Source of the DNA: Candidatus Colwellbacteria bacterium CG10_big_fil_rev_8_21_14_0_10_42_22 | Lineage (GTDB): Bacteria; Patescibacteriota; Minisyncoccia; UBA6257; Colwellbacteraceae | Direction of reading: 5' to 3' | Length of the DNA stretch: 64,000 nucleotides | Assembly (NCBI GenBank): GCA_002773725.1 | Contig: PFAH01000007.1 | Coordinates: forward strand, 19,485-83,484 | In this document: piece by piece, positions 30,796 through 51,101 of the stretch | Layout: the number at the start of each line of letters is the position of its first letter | Numbering within the stretch: position 1 is the stretch's first letter | Translations under genes and position numbers: made by a program | Notes under the pieces: generated by a model | Seen by the model: only the letters and a program-made list of their open reading frames with translations | Database searches by the model: none | Told to the model about the DNA's origin: nothing

Positions 30796-31305
30796 ATGCA
30801 AAAACGAGAAAAAATAACAAAAGAATATGTTCTTGGCATCGTTGAAAGCGAAGGAAGATTCACTTTTTCTACCAGAACAAGGAAATTGGCCAACAAAACG
30901 GTTATTCAAACCAGGGTTCCTACGTTCTCAATAAACATGCACGAAGACAATAGAAATCTATTAGAGCTAGTCAAAAAACAAATGGGCTTAGAGAATAAGA
31001 TATATATCTATAAATCTAAGGATAAAGATGGTTATAATCGGGCTAAAAAAGCCCTTCTAATAGTTAGGGGGTACGGAGCTATTAAAAACATAGTAGTTCC
31101 ATATTTCTATGGACAACTTGTGGGCGGAAAAGCGATCCAATTTAAGCAATGGATAGAGAGAATGGGGGACGATCCACTGGTTGCGGACGGCTACGGACTT
31201 ATTTGTCGCCTGCACAAGAATGGATATTATGCTAAAAATCCTAAATTTTCCGACAACCTTGTAAAACGTGAAAAGTCGAAATCTCCAAAATCGACAAAAA
31301 CCTAG
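30796..31305 (+). CDS. Free-standing LAGLIDADG-type homing-endonuclease-like protein (single motif)
   Basis: KEYVLGIVESEGRF is a LAGLIDADG-like motif in the same N-terminal position as in I-CreI. The 169-aa length matches the homodimeric class. Confidence 0.45.
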   Translation: MQKREKITKEYVLGIVESEGRFTFSTRTRKLANKTVIQTRVPTFSINMHEDNRNLLELVKKQMGLENKIYIYKSKDKDGYNRAKKALLIVRGYGAIKNIVVPYFYGQLVGGKAIQFKQWIERMGDDPLVADGYGLICRLHKNGYYAKNPKFSDNLVKREKSKSPKSTKT

Positions 31306-31533: not shown

Positions 31534-31562
31534 TTGACAAATAATCATTAATGTGATATTCT
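31534..31562 (+). promoter_or_regulatory. Sigma70-like promoter for the DGR target gene
   Basis: Perfect -35 TTGACA (31534-31539), 17-nt spacer, extended -10 tgaTATTCT. A 13-bp-stem hairpin at 31610-31655 lies in the 5' UTR. RBS aaggaga sits 7 nt before the ATG at 31687. Confidence 0.45.
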
Positions 31563-31686
31563 ACACACTGTAGAAGATCGTACCTTAACTTCGCTACTTG
31601 CATATATCTGTTGCAGCTTTTATTGGATAATCTCTTGTCCCATAAAAGCTGCAACAGGGCAGCTCAACAAGAAAAGGAGAATCGTC

Positions 31687-32274
31687 ATGGCTATCAAGGT
31701 CACCGGCGGTCTGTACGAGTCGCTGATGCGACAGATTGCCGAGATCATGCGGCAGATCCACCAACCCGGTGGTTACCCGTTCGATCCGGCTCGTCTTCAC
31801 CAGGGGCTCCAGCGTCTCATCGAGGGTTTGATGGACAGCGCGGCCTCTGCTACCTACCCCATCACTGTGGACTACGGCCTCTCGGTCGAAGCCATGGTGA
31901 AGGCCGGTCGGTACGACTGGGTGAACGACTACATCACATCTCGCAACTTTCCCACCAAGAAGAAGGGGAAGAAGCAGGTCGTGGTGGAGTTGATCCACCT
32001 CAACCGTTCCGTCTCGACAGACGACGCGCTCAAGGAACTCGACAAGATGGGCATGAGGCCCGCCGAGCTTCACGAGCTTCTCGCGCTCGGTCAGATGTAC
32101 CCCGAGCTCCAGCGGGAATTCCCCGTGGTTGCTCTTGGTTCCGTCTGGCAGAACCCGAACGGCAATCGCTACGTTTCGTACCTCAGCAGGGACGATTCGG
32201 AGCGGAACCTGTACCTCGACTGGTTCGAGGTCGACTGGTACGGGTTCTTTCGCTTCGCTGCCGTCCGCAAGTAG
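31687..32274 (+). CDS. DGR target (variable) protein, probable C-type-lectin/FGE-like fold with C-terminal VR
   Basis: 195 aa, good RBS, about 60% GC. The C-terminus ...WQNPNGNRYVSYLSRDDSERNLYLDWFEVDWYGFFRFAAVRK ends in a GFxRxA-like CLec motif and contains the VR. Confidence 0.8.
   Translation: MAIKVTGGLYESLMRQIAEIMRQIHQPGGYPFDPARLHQGLQRLIEGLMDSAASATYPITVDYGLSVEAMVKAGRYDWVNDYITSRNFPTKKKGKKQVVVELIHLNRSVSTDDALKELDKMGMRPAELHELLALGQMYPELQREFPVVALGSVWQNPNGNRYVSYLSRDDSERNLYLDWFEVDWYGFFRFAAVRK
32135..32269 (+). repeat. DGR variable repeat (VR)
   Basis: 135 bp aligning with the TR at 32597-32731. There are 14 differences and every one corresponds to an adenine in the TR (A->G or A->T). Confidence 0.85.
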
Positions 32275-32313
32275 CTGGTCCTTGGGACCTTTGCCCTTTG
32301 GACTCCGAAAGGG

Positions 32314-32345
32314 AAGCCTCCGGTGTGTTCGCACACCGGAGGCTT
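32314..32345 (+). terminator. Strong hairpin 45 nt after the VR (14-bp stem, UUCG tetraloop). Intrinsic terminator and/or DGR target-recognition hairpin.
   Basis: aagcctccggtgtg-ttcg-cacaccggaggctt followed by ttgcgtttc. Confidence 0.7.
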
Positions 32346-32596
32346 TTGCGTTTCTAATTGGGAAGATACAATCAAAGAGGATAGTAGGTGTGTGTGCGTA
32401 AGGTTAAGGCTTTGCGCCATCGAATTCCGGATCTTGGAAATCGGAATGTGGAAAGTTAAACTCTCCCCATAATGTATTTCTTTGTATCCTTAAAAATGAA
32501 GCTACTTGGTGCAAGATATTAAGGAACTTTAGATTCCGGATAAGATACAACCCTAAGAGTATTCAAGGGGTGGTGGCATAGATGATATTTTGTACA

Positions 32597-32731
32597 TTGG
32601 TTCCGTCTGGCAGAACCCGAACGGCAATCACAACGTTTCGTACCTCAACAGGAACGATTCGAAGCGGAACCTGAACCTCAACTGGATCGAGAACGACTGG
32701 AACGAGATCTATCGCTTCGCTGCCGTCCGCA
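32597..32731 (+). repeat. DGR template repeat (TR)
   Basis: Adenine-containing copy of the VR, rich in AAC codons. Followed by an 8-bp-stem hairpin plus T-run at 32747-32775. Confidence 0.85.
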
Positions 32732-32754
32732 GCTCGCTTCGTTTTTCTCCACCG

Positions 32755-33153
32755 CTAGTCGGTGGAGTTTTCTTTTGAAAGTTGTCTCAACCAACCACCG
32801 AGCATTTTTCCTATCTCGTTAAGTTTTTCTGATAAAGCGATATATTTTTTGTTATCGAGTGCTTTTATCTCCCAGGCAATTTGTAAGAAAAATTTGAGCA
32901 AATCTAGTTTCATAATAGCCTGCCGAACGTAAGGAACCTTCTGAGTTTTATAAAACTGACTTGCAAGAAGCGCGGATTCCATGACCTCTATGAGTAGTAA
33001 ATCTATTCTCTCACCCAATGTATATCTAGAAGTTTTTGAAAAGTGAGGCAAGAAGTTATGCCATACTTTATACGCATCAATGAGCTTTTGGATTACAGGT
33101 AAAGCCCCAGCTGGAGCAACGCGAGATTTCTTATGAGAATGAAGTTTATCCAT
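32755..33153 (-). CDS. avd: Avd-like accessory variability determinant (four-helix-bundle protein)
   Basis: 132 aa. The pattern ...LLKFFLQIAWEI...KLNEIGKMLGGWLRQL resembles Bordetella phage Avd/TIGR02436. Its strand is opposite to the RT. Confidence 0.7.
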   Translation of the reverse strand: MDKLHSHKKSRVAPAGALPVIQKLIDAYKVWHNFLPHFSKTSRYTLGERIDLLLIEVMESALLASQFYKTQKVPYVRQAIMKLDLLKFFLQIAWEIKALDNKKYIALSEKLNEIGKMLGGWLRQLSKENSTD

Positions 33154-34170
33154 ACATTCGAAGACATTATTGGGCTTGAAAATCTACTGGAGGCGTGGGG
33201 AGAATTTGTGAAAGGAAAACGTGGGAAACATGATGTGCAAGAATTTTCACTTCACTTAATGGACAATATTTTCAAGCTTCACGCTGAGCTTTTGCATCAT
33301 ACCTATAGGCACGGCGGGTATCAAGCATTTAATATCTGCGATCCCAAACCGAGAAATATCCATAAAGCGAGAGTGCGTGATAGATTGCTCCACCACGCGA
33401 TTCACAGAAAGCTTTATCCATTTTTTGATAAGATTTTTATTCAGGATTCGTACTCTTGCCGCGTTGATAAAGGAACACATAAGGCACTTAACCGATTCAG
33501 AAATTTTGCTTATAAAGTGAGTAAAAACAATACGAGGGCGTGCTGGGTGTTGAAGTGCGATATAAGAAAATTTTTCGCGAATATTAACCACACAACTTTG
33601 ATGAAAATTCTACAAAAATATATTAGAGATAAAGATATTATTTGGCTTCTTGAGGAAGTGATAGAAAGCTTTTCTGTTGGAAGAATTGATGTTGGTCTGC
33701 CATTGGGGAACCTAACCTCACAACTTTTTGTGAATGTGTATATGAATGAATTTGATCAATTTGCTAAACACAGGTTGAAGGCAAGGTATTATATCCGCTA
33801 CGCAGATGACTTTGTATTACTTTCAGAAAACAAAGAATTATTGAGAAAACAAATAAACCTAATTGGAATTTTTTTGAAAGAGAAGTTATCTCTTGAATTA
33901 CATCCACACAAAGTTTCTATTAAATCACTGGCCTCTGGAATCGATTTTTTGGGTTGGGTTCATTTCTCGGATCATAGGGTGCTGAGGACACAAACGAAAC
34001 GAAGGGTAATAAGGCGTGTAAGAGCACATCCTACACCAGAAACTTTTAACTCATACCTGGGACTTCTGCGTCATGGGAATACGTATAAGATCAGATTGGG
34101 AATCCAAAGGACATTTATTCTTTCTGGGGGTGTTCCCAATAATGTTGACGAAGATCTTAGTGGAGCCTAG
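33133..34170 (+). CDS. DGR-type reverse transcriptase
   Basis: The N-terminus aligns with Brt (ENLLEAW...GKRGK). DGR-specific motif LPLGNLTSQLFVNVY and catalytic YADDFV are present. Confidence 0.9.
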   Translation: MRMKFIHTFEDIIGLENLLEAWGEFVKGKRGKHDVQEFSLHLMDNIFKLHAELLHHTYRHGGYQAFNICDPKPRNIHKARVRDRLLHHAIHRKLYPFFDKIFIQDSYSCRVDKGTHKALNRFRNFAYKVSKNNTRACWVLKCDIRKFFANINHTTLMKILQKYIRDKDIIWLLEEVIESFSVGRIDVGLPLGNLTSQLFVNVYMNEFDQFAKHRLKARYYIRYADDFVLLSENKELLRKQINLIGIFLKEKLSLELHPHKVSIKSLASGIDFLGWVHFSDHRVLRTQTKRRVIRRVRAHPTPETFNSYLGLLRHGNTYKIRLGIQRTFILSGGVPNNVDEDLSGA

Positions 34171-35145
34171 AATTCCCAAAAGAAACGTTAGAATAAGGAT
34201 GAAGAAAATAAACTTTGTTGAACTTTTGAAGAAGGTAATAAAACATCGACTAGGCGTAAAAACCGCTCCCTGTCGTTGTGTCGATTGTTATAGTGGAAAA
34301 CAAAGCCGTCCAAGTAAGTCTGTAGATACTTCTTCGAAATAACCTTGTGGGTGCCCTTGGTGCTTCTTTTAACGTGAGACCAAAAAGATTCTAGAGTATT
34401 CGTATGAATATCGCCTTTTACAAACTCTTTTAGGTTGTGCTGAACTGTGTGGCGGTGGTATCCAATAGCAACCTTATCGTATCTATTGCTCTCATCAGTT
34501 AATAAACGCTTATTCAAGACAGGGTTTACGTTCCGATCTAGGAAGCTACCAATAGTCTTTGCCCTATCGTTTGGCGAGACTTCTGCTCTCATTTCACCGC
34601 CTCGCTCAACCGCTCCGATAATGACGGACTTGTTTTGCATAGCTTGGCTACGATTTAGGTTTTGTACTCCACCCCTTTTTCGTCCGCCATACCAAGTCTC
34701 ATCCATTTCTACATCGCCTTCTAGAAATCTTTTGTCTTGCACTAAAGACTTGCGGATGAAGTGGAGCATACGCCACGCTGTTTTATAGGTAACGCCTAGT
34801 TGTCGTTCGACCTCTTTAGCTGAAATACCGCTTTTAGCGTTAGAAAATAGGAGGATAGTATAAAACCACAAGTTAAGAGGTGTGGCGCTCTTATGGAAGA
34901 TTGTGCCCGCAGTGGGGGCTATCTGGAACCTACACTTAGAGCATTGAAACTGTCGTCTATCTTTGAGTAAGGAGTAGTCGCCACCACAAGAACACTTACG
35001 AGAATGTAGGGTGTCGAATATGAAGTCTAGGCAATTCTTTTCTGTGCCAAAATCCTTCTTTAAGTCCCTAATTCCATACTTATCTATTTGAGCCATACCC
35101 TTATTATAAGGTATGCTAATTATGTTGTCAAGGGATAGGCGTGGA
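34171..35145 (-). mobile_element. Putative IS1595-family insertion sequence; ends not defined
   Basis: The transposase gene fills the whole gap between the RT stop (34170) and the uppS stop (35146). No terminal inverted repeats could be identified by eye. Confidence 0.35.
34188..35096 (-). CDS. IS1595-family transposase
   Basis: N-terminal zinc ribbon (CSCGG...CSKC), DDE region (DETWYGG) and C-terminal YLDGFVFHYNNRHN. Confidence 0.8.
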   Translation of the reverse strand: MAQIDKYGIRDLKKDFGTEKNCLDFIFDTLHSRKCSCGGDYSLLKDRRQFQCSKCRFQIAPTAGTIFHKSATPLNLWFYTILLFSNAKSGISAKEVERQLGVTYKTAWRMLHFIRKSLVQDKRFLEGDVEMDETWYGGRKRGGVQNLNRSQAMQNKSVIIGAVERGGEMRAEVSPNDRAKTIGSFLDRNVNPVLNKRLLTDESNRYDKVAIGYHRHTVQHNLKEFVKGDIHTNTLESFWSHVKRSTKGTHKVISKKYLQTYLDGFVFHYNNRHNDRERFLRLVDVLLPSSKVQQSLFSSSLF

Positions 35146-49223: not shown

Positions 49224-49559
49224 ATGAAAAAGCTCACCGAAAAATCATACGCTTGGCTACTTGGCCTTAGTGTGGTCCGTGCCCAGACCCTAGAAGAGCC
49301 ACCAGAGAACGTCGCGGACATTAACAGCTTTATTAAGGCCATCGACCTCATTGCAAAATGGATGTATAACATCCTACTTGCCCTGGGTGTTGTGTTCGTC
49401 TTGTATGCCGCCTTTCTTTACATGATTTCACAGGGCAACGAAGAGAGGATGGAAAGAGCTAAGAAGGTTCTGATTTACGCCATTGTAGCTCTCGTAATAG
49501 CTGTTTTGGCTGGAGGAATCTCAAGCGTTGTTGAGGACTTTATAACTGACGTAGAATAA
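49224..49559 (+). CDS. T4SS pilin-like paralog
   Basis: ...IAKWMYNILLALGVVFVLYAAFLYMISQGNEERMERAKKVLIYAIVALVIAVLAGG is closely similar to the preceding gene. Confidence 0.45.
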   Translation: MKKLTEKSYAWLLGLSVVRAQTLEEPPENVADINSFIKAIDLIAKWMYNILLALGVVFVLYAAFLYMISQGNEERMERAKKVLIYAIVALVIAVLAGGISSVVEDFITDVE

Positions 49560-49615: not shown

Positions 49616-49716
49616 GTGTATGTAAATCTTTTCTAAGTAGTTTATGAAAATAAAGGTGGCGAACTCGGGGCAACAAGTGTTTTATACCTGCTACCCCGAG
49701 CCGCCCGGCGACTTGC

Positions 49717-50718
49717 TCATCCCGAAGCCGGGGTGAACACAACGATGGTGGCTTCAAGGCAGTCGCCGATTGCCTTGAAACTGACGGGAGCACCGTATTC
49801 CGGGTCGACCCGCTCACTCCATCCGGGTTCGACTCCGGCGTAGAGCCACCAGTGTTGGGGACTAGCCCCGACCTCGTACTCTACCCCACCGCTCTCGCAG
49901 TGGGGAAGCTGGACCATCCACAGCTCACGTGGATTGACCGTGGTATTCCGGTTCTTGGTCCAGCCACTGGCGTAGAGGTCGCTCGTGAGAGAAACCTCCA
50001 CCGTCCTCACGATGACCATCCCCGGAGGGGTGACCAACGGACGGCTGAACGCGGGGGGTGCCGGGTCGCTCTGGTAGATGGTGATGACGACCTCGTCTGG
50101 TTCGGTCCACTCGATGAAATCCCTTGTGGCCTGGTTGACCGGTGAGGACTCCACCGTCGCGGCAGACAGACCTGCCGCGATTGCCACGAACACCAACGTC
50201 AGTGCCATCATCAAGCTTCTTACGCCCGACTCCGGAGAGGCAATCAAAGCGAGAATTGCCGAGAGGATGGCAATGGCCCACAGCAACGCCGCAGTCACCA
50301 ATCCCTCGATGGGGAAGATGAGTAGCCAGCTCGCCAAAAAGACGAAACTGGCAACGGCGAGGGCAATCCGGAAAGCGATATGCGTCCGGATTGTTCTGTC
50401 GAGTGCCTTCCCCGCCTTCCCCGCTCGTCGGAGTGCAGCAGAGAGAGCGATGAACCGACCCAAGAGCCGGACGCCGAAGATGGCCAACAGAAAGGCGATG
50501 GCAATCAGGGCAATGGTCGCCCAGACAACAATCGCTGGCGTGAGCTGGCCATACCACGAGAGTATGAGGACGCTGGCCCACTCTGCTGCTACCACGGCCA
50601 TGAGGAGCTGGAACCAGCGGTCCACTACCTCCTCGAATCTGAGGACACGGTTGATAAGGTCTTGGGCACCTCCAACCCGCGCCCACCTGGCGAGCGCTAG
50701 CTGGATGCGCGGAGTCAT
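49717..50718 (-). CDS. GC-rich island gene: multi-TM membrane protein with C-terminal extracytoplasmic domain
   Basis: 333 aa with a sensible hydrophobic/soluble architecture. About 60% GC. Many overlapping antisense ORFs here are GC artefacts. Confidence 0.55.
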   Translation of the reverse strand: MTPRIQLALARWARVGGAQDLINRVLRFEEVVDRWFQLLMAVVAAEWASVLILSWYGQLTPAIVVWATIALIAIAFLLAIFGVRLLGRFIALSAALRRAGKAGKALDRTIRTHIAFRIALAVASFVFLASWLLIFPIEGLVTAALLWAIAILSAILALIASPESGVRSLMMALTLVFVAIAAGLSAATVESSPVNQATRDFIEWTEPDEVVITIYQSDPAPPAFSRPLVTPPGMVIVRTVEVSLTSDLYASGWTKNRNTTVNPRELWMVQLPHCESGGVEYEVGASPQHWWLYAGVEPGWSERVDPEYGAPVSFKAIGDCLEATIVVFTPASG

Positions 50719-51101
50719 GCCCTACCTCCTCTCAGTTCCGGGTCATCGGGCGCCGGGAGCAATCCCGGGAAGAACGCGTCGAGGAAGCCCTCGACGAGCC
50801 CCCCGATACCCGCGTCGGGTGCTGGCTCCGGGAACAGATCCGGATGCGCCTCGATGAGACGCACCATCTCCGGCAAGGTCATCCTTGCCGTCAAGGCAAC
50901 ATCGATCGCCTTGGCGAGATCCCCCGCCTCGACGGCTGTACTGATTGCCAACATGGCATCGGCGCCGGTTTTTGCCACCAACCCACGAGGGCTGGTGGGA
51001 CCGGCGAAGAAGGACTCGACCCGCTTGAGGGCCGCTTCCTCTATCTTGTCGCGAACCCTCTCTCCGAGGGAACGACGGTTGTTTGTGTTCCTCGTTGTCA
51101 T
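50715..51101 (-). CDS. GC-rich island gene: hypothetical 128-aa protein
   Basis: 4-bp ATGA overlap with the downstream gene suggests an operon. Confidence 0.5.
   Translation of the reverse strand: MTTRNTNNRRSLGERVRDKIEEAALKRVESFFAGPTSPRGLVAKTGADAMLAISTAVEAGDLAKAIDVALTARMTLPEMVRLIEAHPDLFPEPAPDAGIGGLVEGFLDAFFPGLLPAPDDPELRGGRA

What the first reader, a model, noticed from the sequence alone, without database searches (positions are those of the whole stretch)
31687..34170. Complete diversity-generating retroelement with adenine-specific TR-to-VR mutagenesis
A 135-bp repeat occurs twice: at 32135-32269 as the last 45 codons of a 195-aa gene (VR), and at 32597-32731 in the intergenic region (TR). 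I aligned them by eye. All 14 mismatches fall on adenines of the TR copy, mutating to G or T in the VR, and there are no non-A differences. The TR is rich in AAC codons and its translation gives N at the variable positions.

Downstream lie an Avd-like four-helix-bundle gene and a reverse transcriptase carrying the DGR-specific LGNLTSQLFVNVY motif and YADDFV. A 14-bp-stem UUCG hairpin sits 45 nt after the VR, where DGR target-recognition hairpins are found. The identical GC-rich 3' block (cgcttcgctgccgtccgca) in both repeats looks like an IMH.

The target C-terminus (...WYGFFRFAAVRK) fits a C-type-lectin/FGE-like DGR variable-protein fold. The protein has no signal peptide, so it is possibly cytoplasmic.
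Basis: partly seen in the sequence, partly recalled or inferred. Interest (0 to 1): 0.9.

Follow-up and report, generated by a model that had tools for sequence, protein, structure and literature searches.

The report
Complete diversity-generating retroelement, CPR type
This is a genuine, intact diversity-generating retroelement of the kind already known to be common in Candidate Phyla Radiation bacteria; it rewrites the last 45 codons of a small lectin-fold protein, and its relatives share some RNA and DNA features I could not find described.

Summary
VR 32135-32269 and TR 32597-32731 differ at 14 positions. All 14 are adenines in the TR (chance about 1e-9), and the TR has no adenine at any third codon position.

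The RT (33133-34170) matches the Bordetella phage DGR RT far better than group II intron RTs. The target models confidently as a divergent C-type-lectin fold.

The contig is from a Candidatus Colwellbacteria genome. The layout target-TR-(avd)-RT is the published "B3" architecture that makes up 90% of CPR DGRs. This is therefore a new member of a known kind, not a surprise.

The UUCG hairpin after the VR looks like an ordinary intrinsic terminator.

Comparing 80+ related loci showed three lineage-wide features absent from Rfam and from the papers I could read:
- A covarying, roughly 220-nt structured RNA upstream of the TR, tied to the TR's 3' flank by a long-range helix.
- 8-nt-periodic CTTGG repeats after target stop codons.
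- Target genes strongly GC-rich and A-poor at synonymous sites along their whole length.

VR heterogeneity in populations could not be tested.

The parts
31534..31562 (+). Promoter-like site upstream of the target gene (TTGACA-17-TATTCT with a TG extension)
   Evidence: Consensus scan, 10 of 12 matches. This is a pattern match only.
31608..31657 (+). 23-bp hairpin in the presumed 5' UTR of the target mRNA
   Evidence: Inverted repeat I1, 91% complementary. Strong hairpins sit at the same place in several related loci, e.g. L002, L043 and L052. Function unknown.
31687..32274 (+). DGR target gene of 195 aa: helical N-terminal part plus a C-type-lectin-like core (residues about 56-195)
32135..32269 (+). 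Variable repeat (VR), codons about 150-195
   Evidence: 14 differences from the TR, all at TR adenines, at codon positions 1 and 2 only.
32251..32269 (+). GC-rich invariant 3' block of the VR (IMH-like), identical to TR 32713-32731
   Evidence: Only two copies in the window. The function is inferred by analogy with BPP-1.
32275..32301 (+). Short array of CTTGG-type repeats (CTGG, CTTGG, CTTTG, CTTTGG) between the stop codon and the terminator
   Evidence: CTTGG is 18-fold enriched in the 70 nt after target stop codons of related loci, with a modal spacing of 8 nt. 37 of 68 such clusters in 786 kb lie within 90 nt of a target stop. The arrays are also present after unrelated target genes of the same RT lineage.
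32314..32358 (+). 14-bp-stem UUCG hairpin plus T-rich tail: probable intrinsic terminator of the target gene
   Evidence: Inverted repeat I10. Most related loci, DGR-linked and orphan alike, carry analogous but non-homologous hairpins followed by T-runs.
32367..32372 (+). TACAAT, the likely -10 box of the TR-RNA promoter
   Evidence: Read from the sequence. Related loci have TGnTAnAAT 7-10 nt before the conserved GGATAGTAG start of the leader. Inference.
32379..32596 (+). Conserved structured 5' leader of the TR RNA (about 218 nt). It contains the invariant ACUUGG at 32504-32509, and helix 32509-32520/32584-32595 closes at the TR boundary
   Evidence: 23-locus alignment A2. RNAalifold predicts 46 pairs, 37 with compensatory changes. 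88% of cells are paired versus 75% in shuffles and 36-49% when partners are slid, with 0 of 500 shuffles reaching the observed values. An nhmmer profile gives a single window hit at 32379-32610, E=1.6e-50. No Rfam match even at E<=10.
32597..32731 (+). Template repeat (TR), non-coding
   Evidence: 36 adenines, none at a third codon position; 10 AAC codons.
32736..32746 (+). U-rich linker just 3' of the TR (GCUUCGUUUUU). It pairs with leader 32492-32502 (AAAAAUGAAGC)
   Evidence: Cognate leader/tail duplexes average -7.1 kcal/mol versus -4.3 for non-cognate pairs, permutation p<=1e-4, with clear compensatory changes in L027, L042, L043 and L063. The helix is recovered by the single-sequence MFE fold and by alifold on a concatenated alignment.
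32747..32776 (+). 8-bp GC-rich hairpin plus UUUUCUUUU: terminator of the TR RNA and/or counterpart of the BPP-1 Avd-binding stem-loop
   Evidence: Terminator scan. Hairpins with different sequences occupy the same position in about 23 related loci. The avd stop codon (32755-32757, minus strand) lies in the loop.
32755..33153 (-). avd (accessory variability determinant), 132 aa
   Evidence: Pfam bAvd 51.1 bits (cut-off 40). NCBIfam DivGenRetAVD 70.5 bits, below its cut-off of 80. The minus-strand orientation is conserved in 26 related loci.
33133..34170 (+). DGR reverse transcriptase, 345 aa
   Evidence: RVT_1. Best PDB relative is BPP-1 bRT, E=2e-42, with the aligned motifs GLPLGNLTSQLFVNVY/GIPIGSLTSQLFANVY and YADD/YMDD.

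Best explanation
The locus is an intact diversity-generating retroelement of the CPR-specific lineage, with the layout target - TR - (avd, opposite strand) - RT.

Proposed mechanism:
1. The TR is transcribed as part of a roughly 400-nt non-coding RNA. Its predicted 5' end is near 32379 and its 3' end near 32776.
2. This RNA consists of a structured leader, the 135-nt template, a short linker that pairs back to the leader, and a terminal hairpin.
3. The RT, together with Avd, copies the template into cDNA and misincorporates opposite the 36 template adenines.
4. The cDNA replaces the homologous last 135 nt (VR) of the 195-aa target gene. About 23 codons on a C-type-lectin-like fold are recoded while the scaffold stays fixed.

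What is shown: the adenine-specific TR/VR pattern, the protein identities, the fold prediction, and the conserved RNA structure. What is inferred by analogy with the Bordetella phage BPP-1 system: the transcript ends, the RNP, the priming, and the way the cDNA is integrated.
For: - TR/VR: 14 of 14 mismatches fall on TR adenines (P about 1e-9), and there is no A at third codon positions.
- RT: closest to BPP-1 bRT, carrying the DGR-type LGxxxSQ and YADD motifs.
- Avd: above Pfam's bAvd threshold.
- All ORFs are intact.
- The same architecture with A-specific TR/VR differences occurs in about 23 related CPR loci. One TR also matches VRs on other contigs of the same genome.
- Target fold is CLec-like.
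- Leader RNA covariation, long-range helix and post-TR hairpin/terminator.
- The architecture is documented as B3 for 90% of CPR DGRs, and a CPR-restricted DGR clade is described.
Against: - There is no direct evidence of current activity. The only other public contig found (L079) is identical over the part of the VR it covers.
- The NCBIfam Avd score is below that model's cut-off.
- NCBIfam has no DGR RT model, so clade placement rests on PDB similarity and motifs, not on a phylogeny.
- No convincing sigma-70-like promoter was found for the RT.
- The priming site on the RNA could not be located.
Confidence: 0.93

Rival explanations
1. It is a DGR that was active in the past but is now silent. 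The VR differences would be fossils of earlier homing events.
For: No population heterogeneity could be shown. An IS1595 transposase sits directly after the RT. Related genomes contain decayed remnants: partial leaders in L049, L055 and L071, and RT fragments in L007, L044 and L071.
Against: RT, Avd, target, TR, leader RNA and hairpins are all intact and match the family consensus. There are no non-A mismatches at all between TR and VR, whereas decaying copies such as L031 and L036 accumulate them. The IS1595 gene is also next to the RT in the closest relative L080, so it is an old neighbour rather than a recent disruption.
Confidence: 0.12
2. The 14-bp UUCG hairpin is the DGR target-recognition hairpin/cruciform, rather than merely a transcription terminator.
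For: In BPP-1 a hairpin after the VR is needed for efficient homing, and its stem sequence can vary. Almost all related targets carry a strong hairpin with a 3-4-nt loop, often GNRA or UUCG. [quoted passage not shown]
Against: Stem length (12-16 bp), distance from the VR (16-99 nt) and the trailing T-run all fit an intrinsic terminator. They lie outside the characterised 7-10 bp stem, GRNA loop and 4-34 bp distance. Family members without a cis DGR and without the CTTGG array also have such hairpins. Wu 2018 found GC-rich inverted repeats in only 34% of DGRs.
Confidence: 0.3
3. It is not a DGR. The repeat would be an ordinary duplication next to a group II intron or retron-type RT, which is how public annotation names many of these RTs.
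For: Public records call close homologues 'group II intron reverse transcriptase' or 'retron-type reverse transcriptase'. The best NCBIfam hit is the group II RT/maturase model.
Against: The NCBIfam score is 144 against a cut-off of 300. There is no maturase or endonuclease domain, and no intron RNA or Rfam group II hit. BPP-1 bRT is a much better match than any group II RT. Avd is present. An exclusively adenine-directed mismatch pattern with A-free wobble positions is not expected from duplication.
Confidence: 0.01

Closest known systems
CPR/Patescibacteria DGRs: 'CPR set' with architecture B3, TR-(avd)-RT (Wu et al. 2018, PMC5758913); DGR clade 2 (Roux et al. 2021, PMC8144416); first described by Paul et al. 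2017 (not readable here)
   Same: Host group. Gene order and the inverted avd. A small target without signal peptide, transmembrane segment or known domain. The VR at the C-terminus. Multiple or remote targets in some genomes.
   Different: Nothing at the level of kind. I could not check whether this particular locus, its target family (possibly one of Wu's unclassified 'UVR' classes), the leader RNA or the CTTGG arrays are already catalogued.
Bordetella phage BPP-1 DGR (mtd-avd-TR-brt), the mechanistic prototype
   Same: An RT of the same clade (E=2e-42), Avd, A-specific TR-to-VR transfer, a GC-rich invariant 3' block, a C-type-lectin-fold target, a stem-loop just after the TR, and a duplex joining sequences upstream and downstream of the TR (Handa et al., bioRxiv 2023.10.23.563531).
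   Different: - In BPP-1, avd, TR and brt are co-oriented, and the large essential structured RNA (Sp, Rfam RT-10) lies downstream of the TR.
- Here avd is inverted. The large structured domain (about 218 nt) lies upstream of the TR, and only about 45 nt (linker, hairpin, U-run) follow it. There is no RT-10 match.
- The BPP-1 IMH differs from IMH*. Here the two blocks are identical.
- BPP-1 has an 8-bp GAAA hairpin 4 bp after the VR. Here CTTGG repeats are followed by a long terminator hairpin.
Treponema denticola TvpA and other DGR variable proteins with FGE/CLec folds
Group II intron reverse transcriptases
   Same: The RVT_1 fingers/palm/thumb. These are the nearest non-DGR relatives.
   Different: No intron RNA, no maturase or endonuclease domains, the SQ-type motif 4, and partnership with Avd and a TR.

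Membership tests
Diversity-generating retroelement (DGR) | Reverse transcriptase of the DGR clade (motif 4 [ILV]GxxxSQ, YxDD catalytic box) | tested here: met
   Best PDB match is BPP-1 bRT, 149 bits versus 83 or less for group II-type RTs. LGNLTSQ aligns with IGSLTSQ, and YADD is present. No tree was built.
Diversity-generating retroelement (DGR) | TR/VR repeat pair whose differences are confined to TR adenines | tested here: met
   14 of 14 mismatches fall on A, P about 1e-9.
Diversity-generating retroelement (DGR) | VR inside an ORF (usually the 3' end), with TR adenines at codon positions 1 and 2 and AAY codons | tested here: met
   The VR covers the last 45 codons. Of the 35 As in full codons, 15/20/0 fall at codon positions 1/2/3. 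There are 10 AAC and 1 AAT codons.
Diversity-generating retroelement (DGR) | Accessory protein Avd (present in most DGRs) | tested here: met
   Pfam bAvd 51 bits against a cut-off of 40. NCBIfam 70.5 bits against a cut-off of 80, so below that stricter threshold.
Diversity-generating retroelement (DGR) | IMH at the VR 3' end, distinguished from IMH* at the TR 3' end | tested here: inconclusive
   A GC-rich invariant block is present, but it is identical in VR and TR. The sequences diverge only after position 32269/32731. Wu 2018 notes that such cases exist.
Diversity-generating retroelement (DGR) | GC-rich hairpin/cruciform shortly after the VR (7-10 bp stem, 4-nt GRNA loop, 4-34 bp away in phage DGRs) | tested here: not met
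   The hairpin here has a 14-bp stem, a UUCG loop, lies 44 nt away and is followed by a T-run, so it is terminator-like. This feature is not universal: 34% of DGRs have it.
Diversity-generating retroelement (DGR) | Ongoing VR diversification in a population | not testable with these tools
   No reads are available. Two metagenome scans found one identical partial contig.
CPR DGR architecture B3 (Wu 2018) | Order TR-(avd)-RT with avd on the opposite strand, in a CPR host | tested here: met
   Coordinates. Host identified from a 100% identical protein of Candidatus Colwellbacteria. The same order occurs in 26 related loci. Definition taken.
C-type-lectin-fold DGR variable proteins | CLec/FGE-like fold with the variable residues in the C-terminal part | tested here: met
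BPP-1-type DGR RNA (Rfam RT-10 / Sp downstream of the TR) | [quoted passage not shown] | tested here: not met
   No Rfam hit in 32250-32800, even at E<=10. The region between TR and RT is the antisense of avd. The conserved structure lies upstream of the TR.

The most novel reading that the evidence does not exclude
The CPR DGR lineage to which this locus belongs may work with a differently organised RNA and a different recipient mark than the BPP-1 prototype.

- RNA organisation: a roughly 220-nt covarying domain lies upstream of the template. A long-range helix clamps the template's 3' flank back onto that domain next to an invariant ACUUGG, and the RNA ends in a hairpin plus U-run. In effect this permutes the avd-TR-Sp arrangement.
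- Recipient mark: recipient genes, whatever their protein family, carry 8-nt-periodic CTTGG repeats after the stop codon. The repeats contain the same pentamer as the invariant RNA junction.
- Composition: recipient genes are also purged of A and T at synonymous sites over their whole length.

The repeats could be the signal that tells recipient from donor, given that IMH and IMH* are identical here.
Probability: 0.35. Interest if true: 0.7.

Novelty: new member of a known kind. Interest (0 to 1): 0.42.

Why it matters
As a DGR, the locus adds one well-preserved example to a class already known to be abundant in CPR bacteria, so by itself it changes little.

The comparative by-products could matter more. 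How DGR cDNA finds and enters its target is still unresolved (PLoS Genet 2026, PMC12875486), and all mechanistic knowledge comes from one phage element. A second, very large lineage exists, with at least 8000 RT homologues. It has a clearly covarying but differently arranged RNA, a simple repeated motif beside every recipient gene, and an unexplained composition signature. These give concrete, mutable elements for testing what defines the template RNA, where priming occurs, and how the recipient is told from the donor. The lineage also supplies a compact (about 140-residue) lectin-fold scaffold able to carry about 1e20 variants.

Tried and rejected
- **Population variation.** An exact 33-mer just upstream of the VR found nothing in the metagenome collection. 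A TR pattern with every A replaced by N found one 1.2-kb contig (L079) identical to the window. That contig starts inside the VR, which is at most a weak hint of assembly trouble. Exact-protein look-ups of the RT and the target returned nothing.
- **Rfam.** There was no family at gathering thresholds in the window apart from three tRNAs, and only noise at E<=10 in 32250-32800.
- **Primer/template duplex.** I looked for a conserved pairing partner for the TR 3' end, as a counterpart of the BPP-1 template:primer duplex. Alifold on a concatenated leader+tail alignment gave nothing convincing. The priming site stays unknown.
- **RT promoter.** No sigma-70-like promoter for the RT was found inside avd. 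Read-through from the TR RNA remains a guess.
- **Further targets in the window.** There was no other match to the TR 3' block or to the target protein. A CTTGG cluster at 49252-49270 lies inside a coding region and looks like chance.
- **Explanations rejected for the GC-rich target.** Amino-acid composition is ruled out because GC2 is unchanged. A single recent transfer is ruled out because targets are only 45-60% identical and the effect recurs across many phylum-level CPR groups and three unrelated scaffolds. Assembly chimerism is ruled out because the effect recurs in more than 60 MAGs.
- **Replication direction.** GC skew over the window is too weak and noisy to assign a replication direction.
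- **A mistake of mine.** My dot-bracket for helix 5 was one column out of register, so that helix's low pairing there is my error. RNAalifold's own table shows that it covaries.
Full report
**1. The observation**

The repeat finder reports a two-copy direct repeat at 32135-32276 / 32597-32738. An ungapped comparison of 32135-32269 with 32597-32731 gives 14 mismatches. Every one has A in the downstream copy: 7 A>G and 7 A>T. All fall at codon position 1 or 2 of the ORF 31687-32274. With 36 A in 135 bases, the probability that 14 of 14 hit A is about 1e-9.

In the reading frame of the target, 35 of the TR's 36 adenines lie in complete codons: 15 at position 1, 20 at position 2 and none at position 3. 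There are 10 AAC codons and one AAT. Twenty-three codons are variable, allowing about 1e20 protein variants. The last 19 nt of the two copies are identical and occur nowhere else in the window. The hairpin, the RT motifs and the ORFs are as described.

It is divergent from the RT (33133-34170), and the two start regions overlap by 21 nt.

**2. What the parts are**

- *RT.* It has an RVT_1 domain. Against all PDB sequences its best match is the Bordetella phage BPP-1 DGR reverse transcriptase (8ub7, E=2e-42, 149 bits). The next matches, group II intron-type RTs, reach 83 bits or less. The alignment places LGNLTSQLFVNVY on IGSLTSQLFANVY and YADD on YMDD. NCBIfam has no DGR RT model. Its best hit is the group II RT/maturase model at 144 bits against a cut-off of 300. 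This explains why public records name close homologues 'group II intron' or 'retron-type' RTs.
- *Avd.* The minus-strand ORF passes Pfam's bAvd threshold (51 bits, cut-off 40). It scores 70.5 on NCBIfam's DGR Avd model, below that model's cut-off of 80.
- *Target.* It has no Pfam, NCBIfam or PDB sequence match. It does have 332 homologues of about 200 aa, all from CPR-type organisms. The 100% match names the source as Candidatus Colwellbacteria bacterium CG10_big_fil_rev_8.

**3. Relatives and the published picture**

A genome scan with the target alignment returned 78 loci, most of them labelled as Patescibacteria/CPR MAGs.

- In 26 loci both RT and Avd homologues lie downstream, always as target(+) - TR(+) - avd(-) - RT(+).
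- In 23 of these loci the TR/VR pair can be delimited. The mismatches are overwhelmingly on TR adenines.
- About 50 loci are 'orphan' targets. Some are remote targets of a DGR elsewhere in the genome. In Falkowbacteria CG1_02_41_21 the TR of L054 matches VRs on two other contigs, with 16 of 20 and 15 of 17 mismatches on A. L043 has two tandem targets that both match its TR.

The published literature already covers this layout:

- Wu et al. [quoted passage not shown]
- Roux et al. 2021 describe a DGR clade restricted to Patescibacteria whose targets lack transmembrane or other recognisable domains.

The locus is therefore a typical member of a documented class. The inverted avd is not new.

**4. 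The hairpin and the 'IMH'**

In the related loci most targets, with or without a nearby DGR, are followed by a strong hairpin. These hairpins have 12-16 bp stems, 3-4-nt loops and unrelated stem sequences, lie 16-99 nt after the stop codon, and are followed by a T-run. That is the signature of an intrinsic terminator.

The hairpins shown to matter for phage DGR homing have 7-10-bp stems and 4-nt GRNA loops, and lie 4-34 bp after the VR (Guo 2011). The window's hairpin (14 bp, UUCG, 44 nt, T-rich tail) does not fit that description. A dual role cannot be excluded.

The GC-rich 3' block is identical in VR and TR. Any donor/recipient discrimination must therefore lie further downstream, a situation Wu et al. 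also note.

**5. Things found along the way**

*(a) A structured RNA in the 'intergenic' DNA between the target's terminator and the TR.*

- Twenty-three loci align over about 220-260 nt. The aligned region starts at GGATAGTAG, a few nt after a TATAAT-like box, and ends exactly at the TR.
- RNAalifold predicts 46 pairs, 37 of them with compensatory double changes.
- For that structure, 88% of cells pair, against 75% after shuffling and 36-49% when partners are slid by 1-3 columns. No shuffle out of 500 reaches the observed values on any measure.
- A further long-range helix joins an A-rich leader segment just 5' of an invariant ACUUGG (window 32492-32502) to the U-rich linker just 3' of the TR (32736-32746). 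Cognate pairs are more stable than non-cognate ones (-7.1 versus -4.3 kcal/mol, permutation p<=1e-4), with perfect compensatory examples in L027, L042, L043 and L063. The helix is also recovered by the MFE fold of the window sequence alone and by alifold on a concatenated alignment.
- Directly after the linker comes a GC-rich hairpin of variable sequence plus a U-run (window 32747-32776). It is oriented as a terminator for the TR strand only. The avd stop codon lies in its loop.
- Rfam 15 has nothing matching, even at E<=10. Its RT-10 motif is the BPP-1 spacer between TR and RT (Weinberg 2017).
- Handa et al. (bioRxiv 2023.10.23.563531) describe, for BPP-1, an Avd-binding stem-loop just after the TR and a 'cPRT Stop' duplex between sequences upstream and downstream of the TR. 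They report similar elements in other DGRs, CPR included, after examining 40 nt upstream and 100 nt downstream of the TR. The hairpin and the long-range helix here are plausible counterparts. However, the upstream strand lies about 95 nt before the TR, and the large structured domain is upstream rather than downstream.
- I could not locate a primer site.

*(b) CTTGG repeats between the stop codon and the terminator.*

- Most targets carry 3-7 copies of a CTTGG-like motif. CTTGG is 18-fold enriched there (1.59 versus 0.09 per 70 nt), and the modal spacing is 8 nt.
- Of 68 such clusters in 786 kb (both strands), 37 lie within 90 nt after a target stop codon.
- 23 of 24 cis-DGR targets have an array, against 65% of orphans. 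Targets without an array have a smaller GC excess (p=0.008).
- The window's array is short (32275-32301).
- The TR is not followed by such repeats.

*(c) Composition of the target genes.*

- Target genes are compositionally alien along their whole length. In the window, GC is 0.60 against 0.44 for the contig.
- GC3 is 0.81 against 0.44 +/- 0.09 for other ORFs and 0.36 for RT and avd. Third-position A is 4.7%.
- Across 66 loci, GC3 is +15.6 points (p=7e-10), A3 is -9, T3 is -6, C3 is +13, and GC2 is unchanged.

*(d) All three features follow the RT lineage, not the target family.*

- Loci retrieved through RT homologues (67-71% identical) have unrelated or barely related targets: L081 with 260 aa, L082 with 211 aa and L083 with 136 aa.
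- They still show the repeats, the terminator, the leader, the pairing linker and hairpin, and GC-rich targets (GC3 0.67-0.79 against RT GC 0.36-0.42).
- A profile of the leader finds exactly one copy per DGR locus (window 32379-32610, E=1.6e-50). It finds truncated copies in a few loci that look like decayed elements.

**6. How it most likely works**

Shown:
- An RT of the DGR clade and an Avd.
- A non-coding template whose only differences from the 3' end of a lectin-fold gene are at adenines.
- A conserved RNA structure embracing the template.

Inferred from the BPP-1 system and the cited papers:
- The roughly 400-nt RNA binds RT-Avd.
- cDNA synthesis starts near the TR 3' end and stops at the structured 5' boundary.
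- The adenine-mutagenised cDNA replaces the VR.

The biological role of the target is unknown. Like other CPR DGR targets it has no export signal.

**7. What could not be done**

The public collections held only one other contig, identical to the window. Paul et al. 2017, the primary description of CPR DGRs, is not held. I therefore cannot say that the leader RNA, the repeats or the composition bias are undescribed. I can only say that they are absent from Rfam 15 and from the DGR papers I could read.

**8. Verdict**

The finding is correct and well observed. It describes an ordinary member of a known class, so the interest score is moderate rather than the 0.9 given. The lineage-wide RNA structure, the recipient-side repeats and the composition anomaly are the parts worth a specialist's attention.

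Noticed in passing
window 32379-32596, with 32736-32776; loci L002-L063 and L080-L083: A conserved, covarying structured RNA of about 220 nt lies immediately upstream of the TR. A long-range helix ties it to the linker after the TR, and a hairpin plus U-run follows. It is present once in every DGR locus of this RT lineage and has no Rfam match.
   Followed up: yes
window 32275-32301; 70 nt after the target stop codon in most of L001-L083: Tandem CTTGG-type repeats with a period of about 8 nt lie between the target stop codon and the terminator. They are 18-fold enriched and also occur after unrelated target families of the same RT lineage. They are absent after the TR. The leader RNA has an invariant ACUUGG containing the same pentamer.
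   Followed up: partly
window 31687-32274; targets in 66 related loci and in L081-L083: The whole target gene is GC-rich at synonymous sites (GC3 0.81, third-position A 4.7%) in a 44% GC contig. RT, avd and the leader RNA are AT-rich. The effect is family-wide and unexplained.
   Followed up: partly
window 31608-31657: A 23-bp hairpin lies in the presumed 5' UTR of the target gene, just before the ribosome-binding site. Comparable strong hairpins sit upstream of several related targets (L002, L043, L052).
   Followed up: partly
window 33133-33153: The avd (minus strand) and RT (plus strand) start regions overlap by 21 nt, divergently. The same overlap occurs in L017, L020, L040, L043 and L052. 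Each gene's promoter must therefore lie inside the other's coding region, or the RT is read through from the TR RNA.
   Followed up: no
window 34188-35096 (minus strand); L080 2277-3182: An IS1595/ISXO2-like transposase gene lies directly after the RT. The closest relative (L080, RT 87% identical) has the same neighbour (89% identical) but a different cis target. In L080 the orthologue of the window's target lies beyond the transposase.
   Followed up: partly
L054 with L068 and L072; L043: In related genomes one TR matches VRs of paralogous targets on other contigs or in tandem, with A-specific differences. Many 'orphan' family members are therefore probably remote DGR targets.
   Followed up: yes
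L049 6597-6766, L055 2680-2815, L071 6468-6582; L031: Truncated copies of the leader RNA, RT fragments, or a leader+TR without RT/avd lie next to some targets. These look like decaying DGRs.
   Followed up: partly
L079 (Ga0210050_1112767) = window 32214-33414: The only other public contig of this element starts in the middle of the VR. That could reflect assembly breakage at a heterogeneous or repeated region, but it proves nothing.
   Followed up: partly
window 49700-51000: A second GC-rich island (60-65% GC) has long ORFs in several frames. ORF 49717-50718 (minus strand, 333 aa, GC3 0.73) has no Pfam hit and no similarity to the DGR target.
   Followed up: partly
window 30796-31305: A free-standing LAGLIDADG endonuclease ORF (169 aa) lies about 380 nt upstream of the target gene. 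No intron or intein context is evident.
   Followed up: no
RT homologues P0121-P0240: At least 8000 homologues exist at E<=1e-30. Those listed with an organism name are all CPR and 66-87% identical. Many are publicly annotated as 'group II intron' or 'retron-type' reverse transcriptase, which is probably a systematic mis-annotation of DGR RTs.
   Followed up: partly
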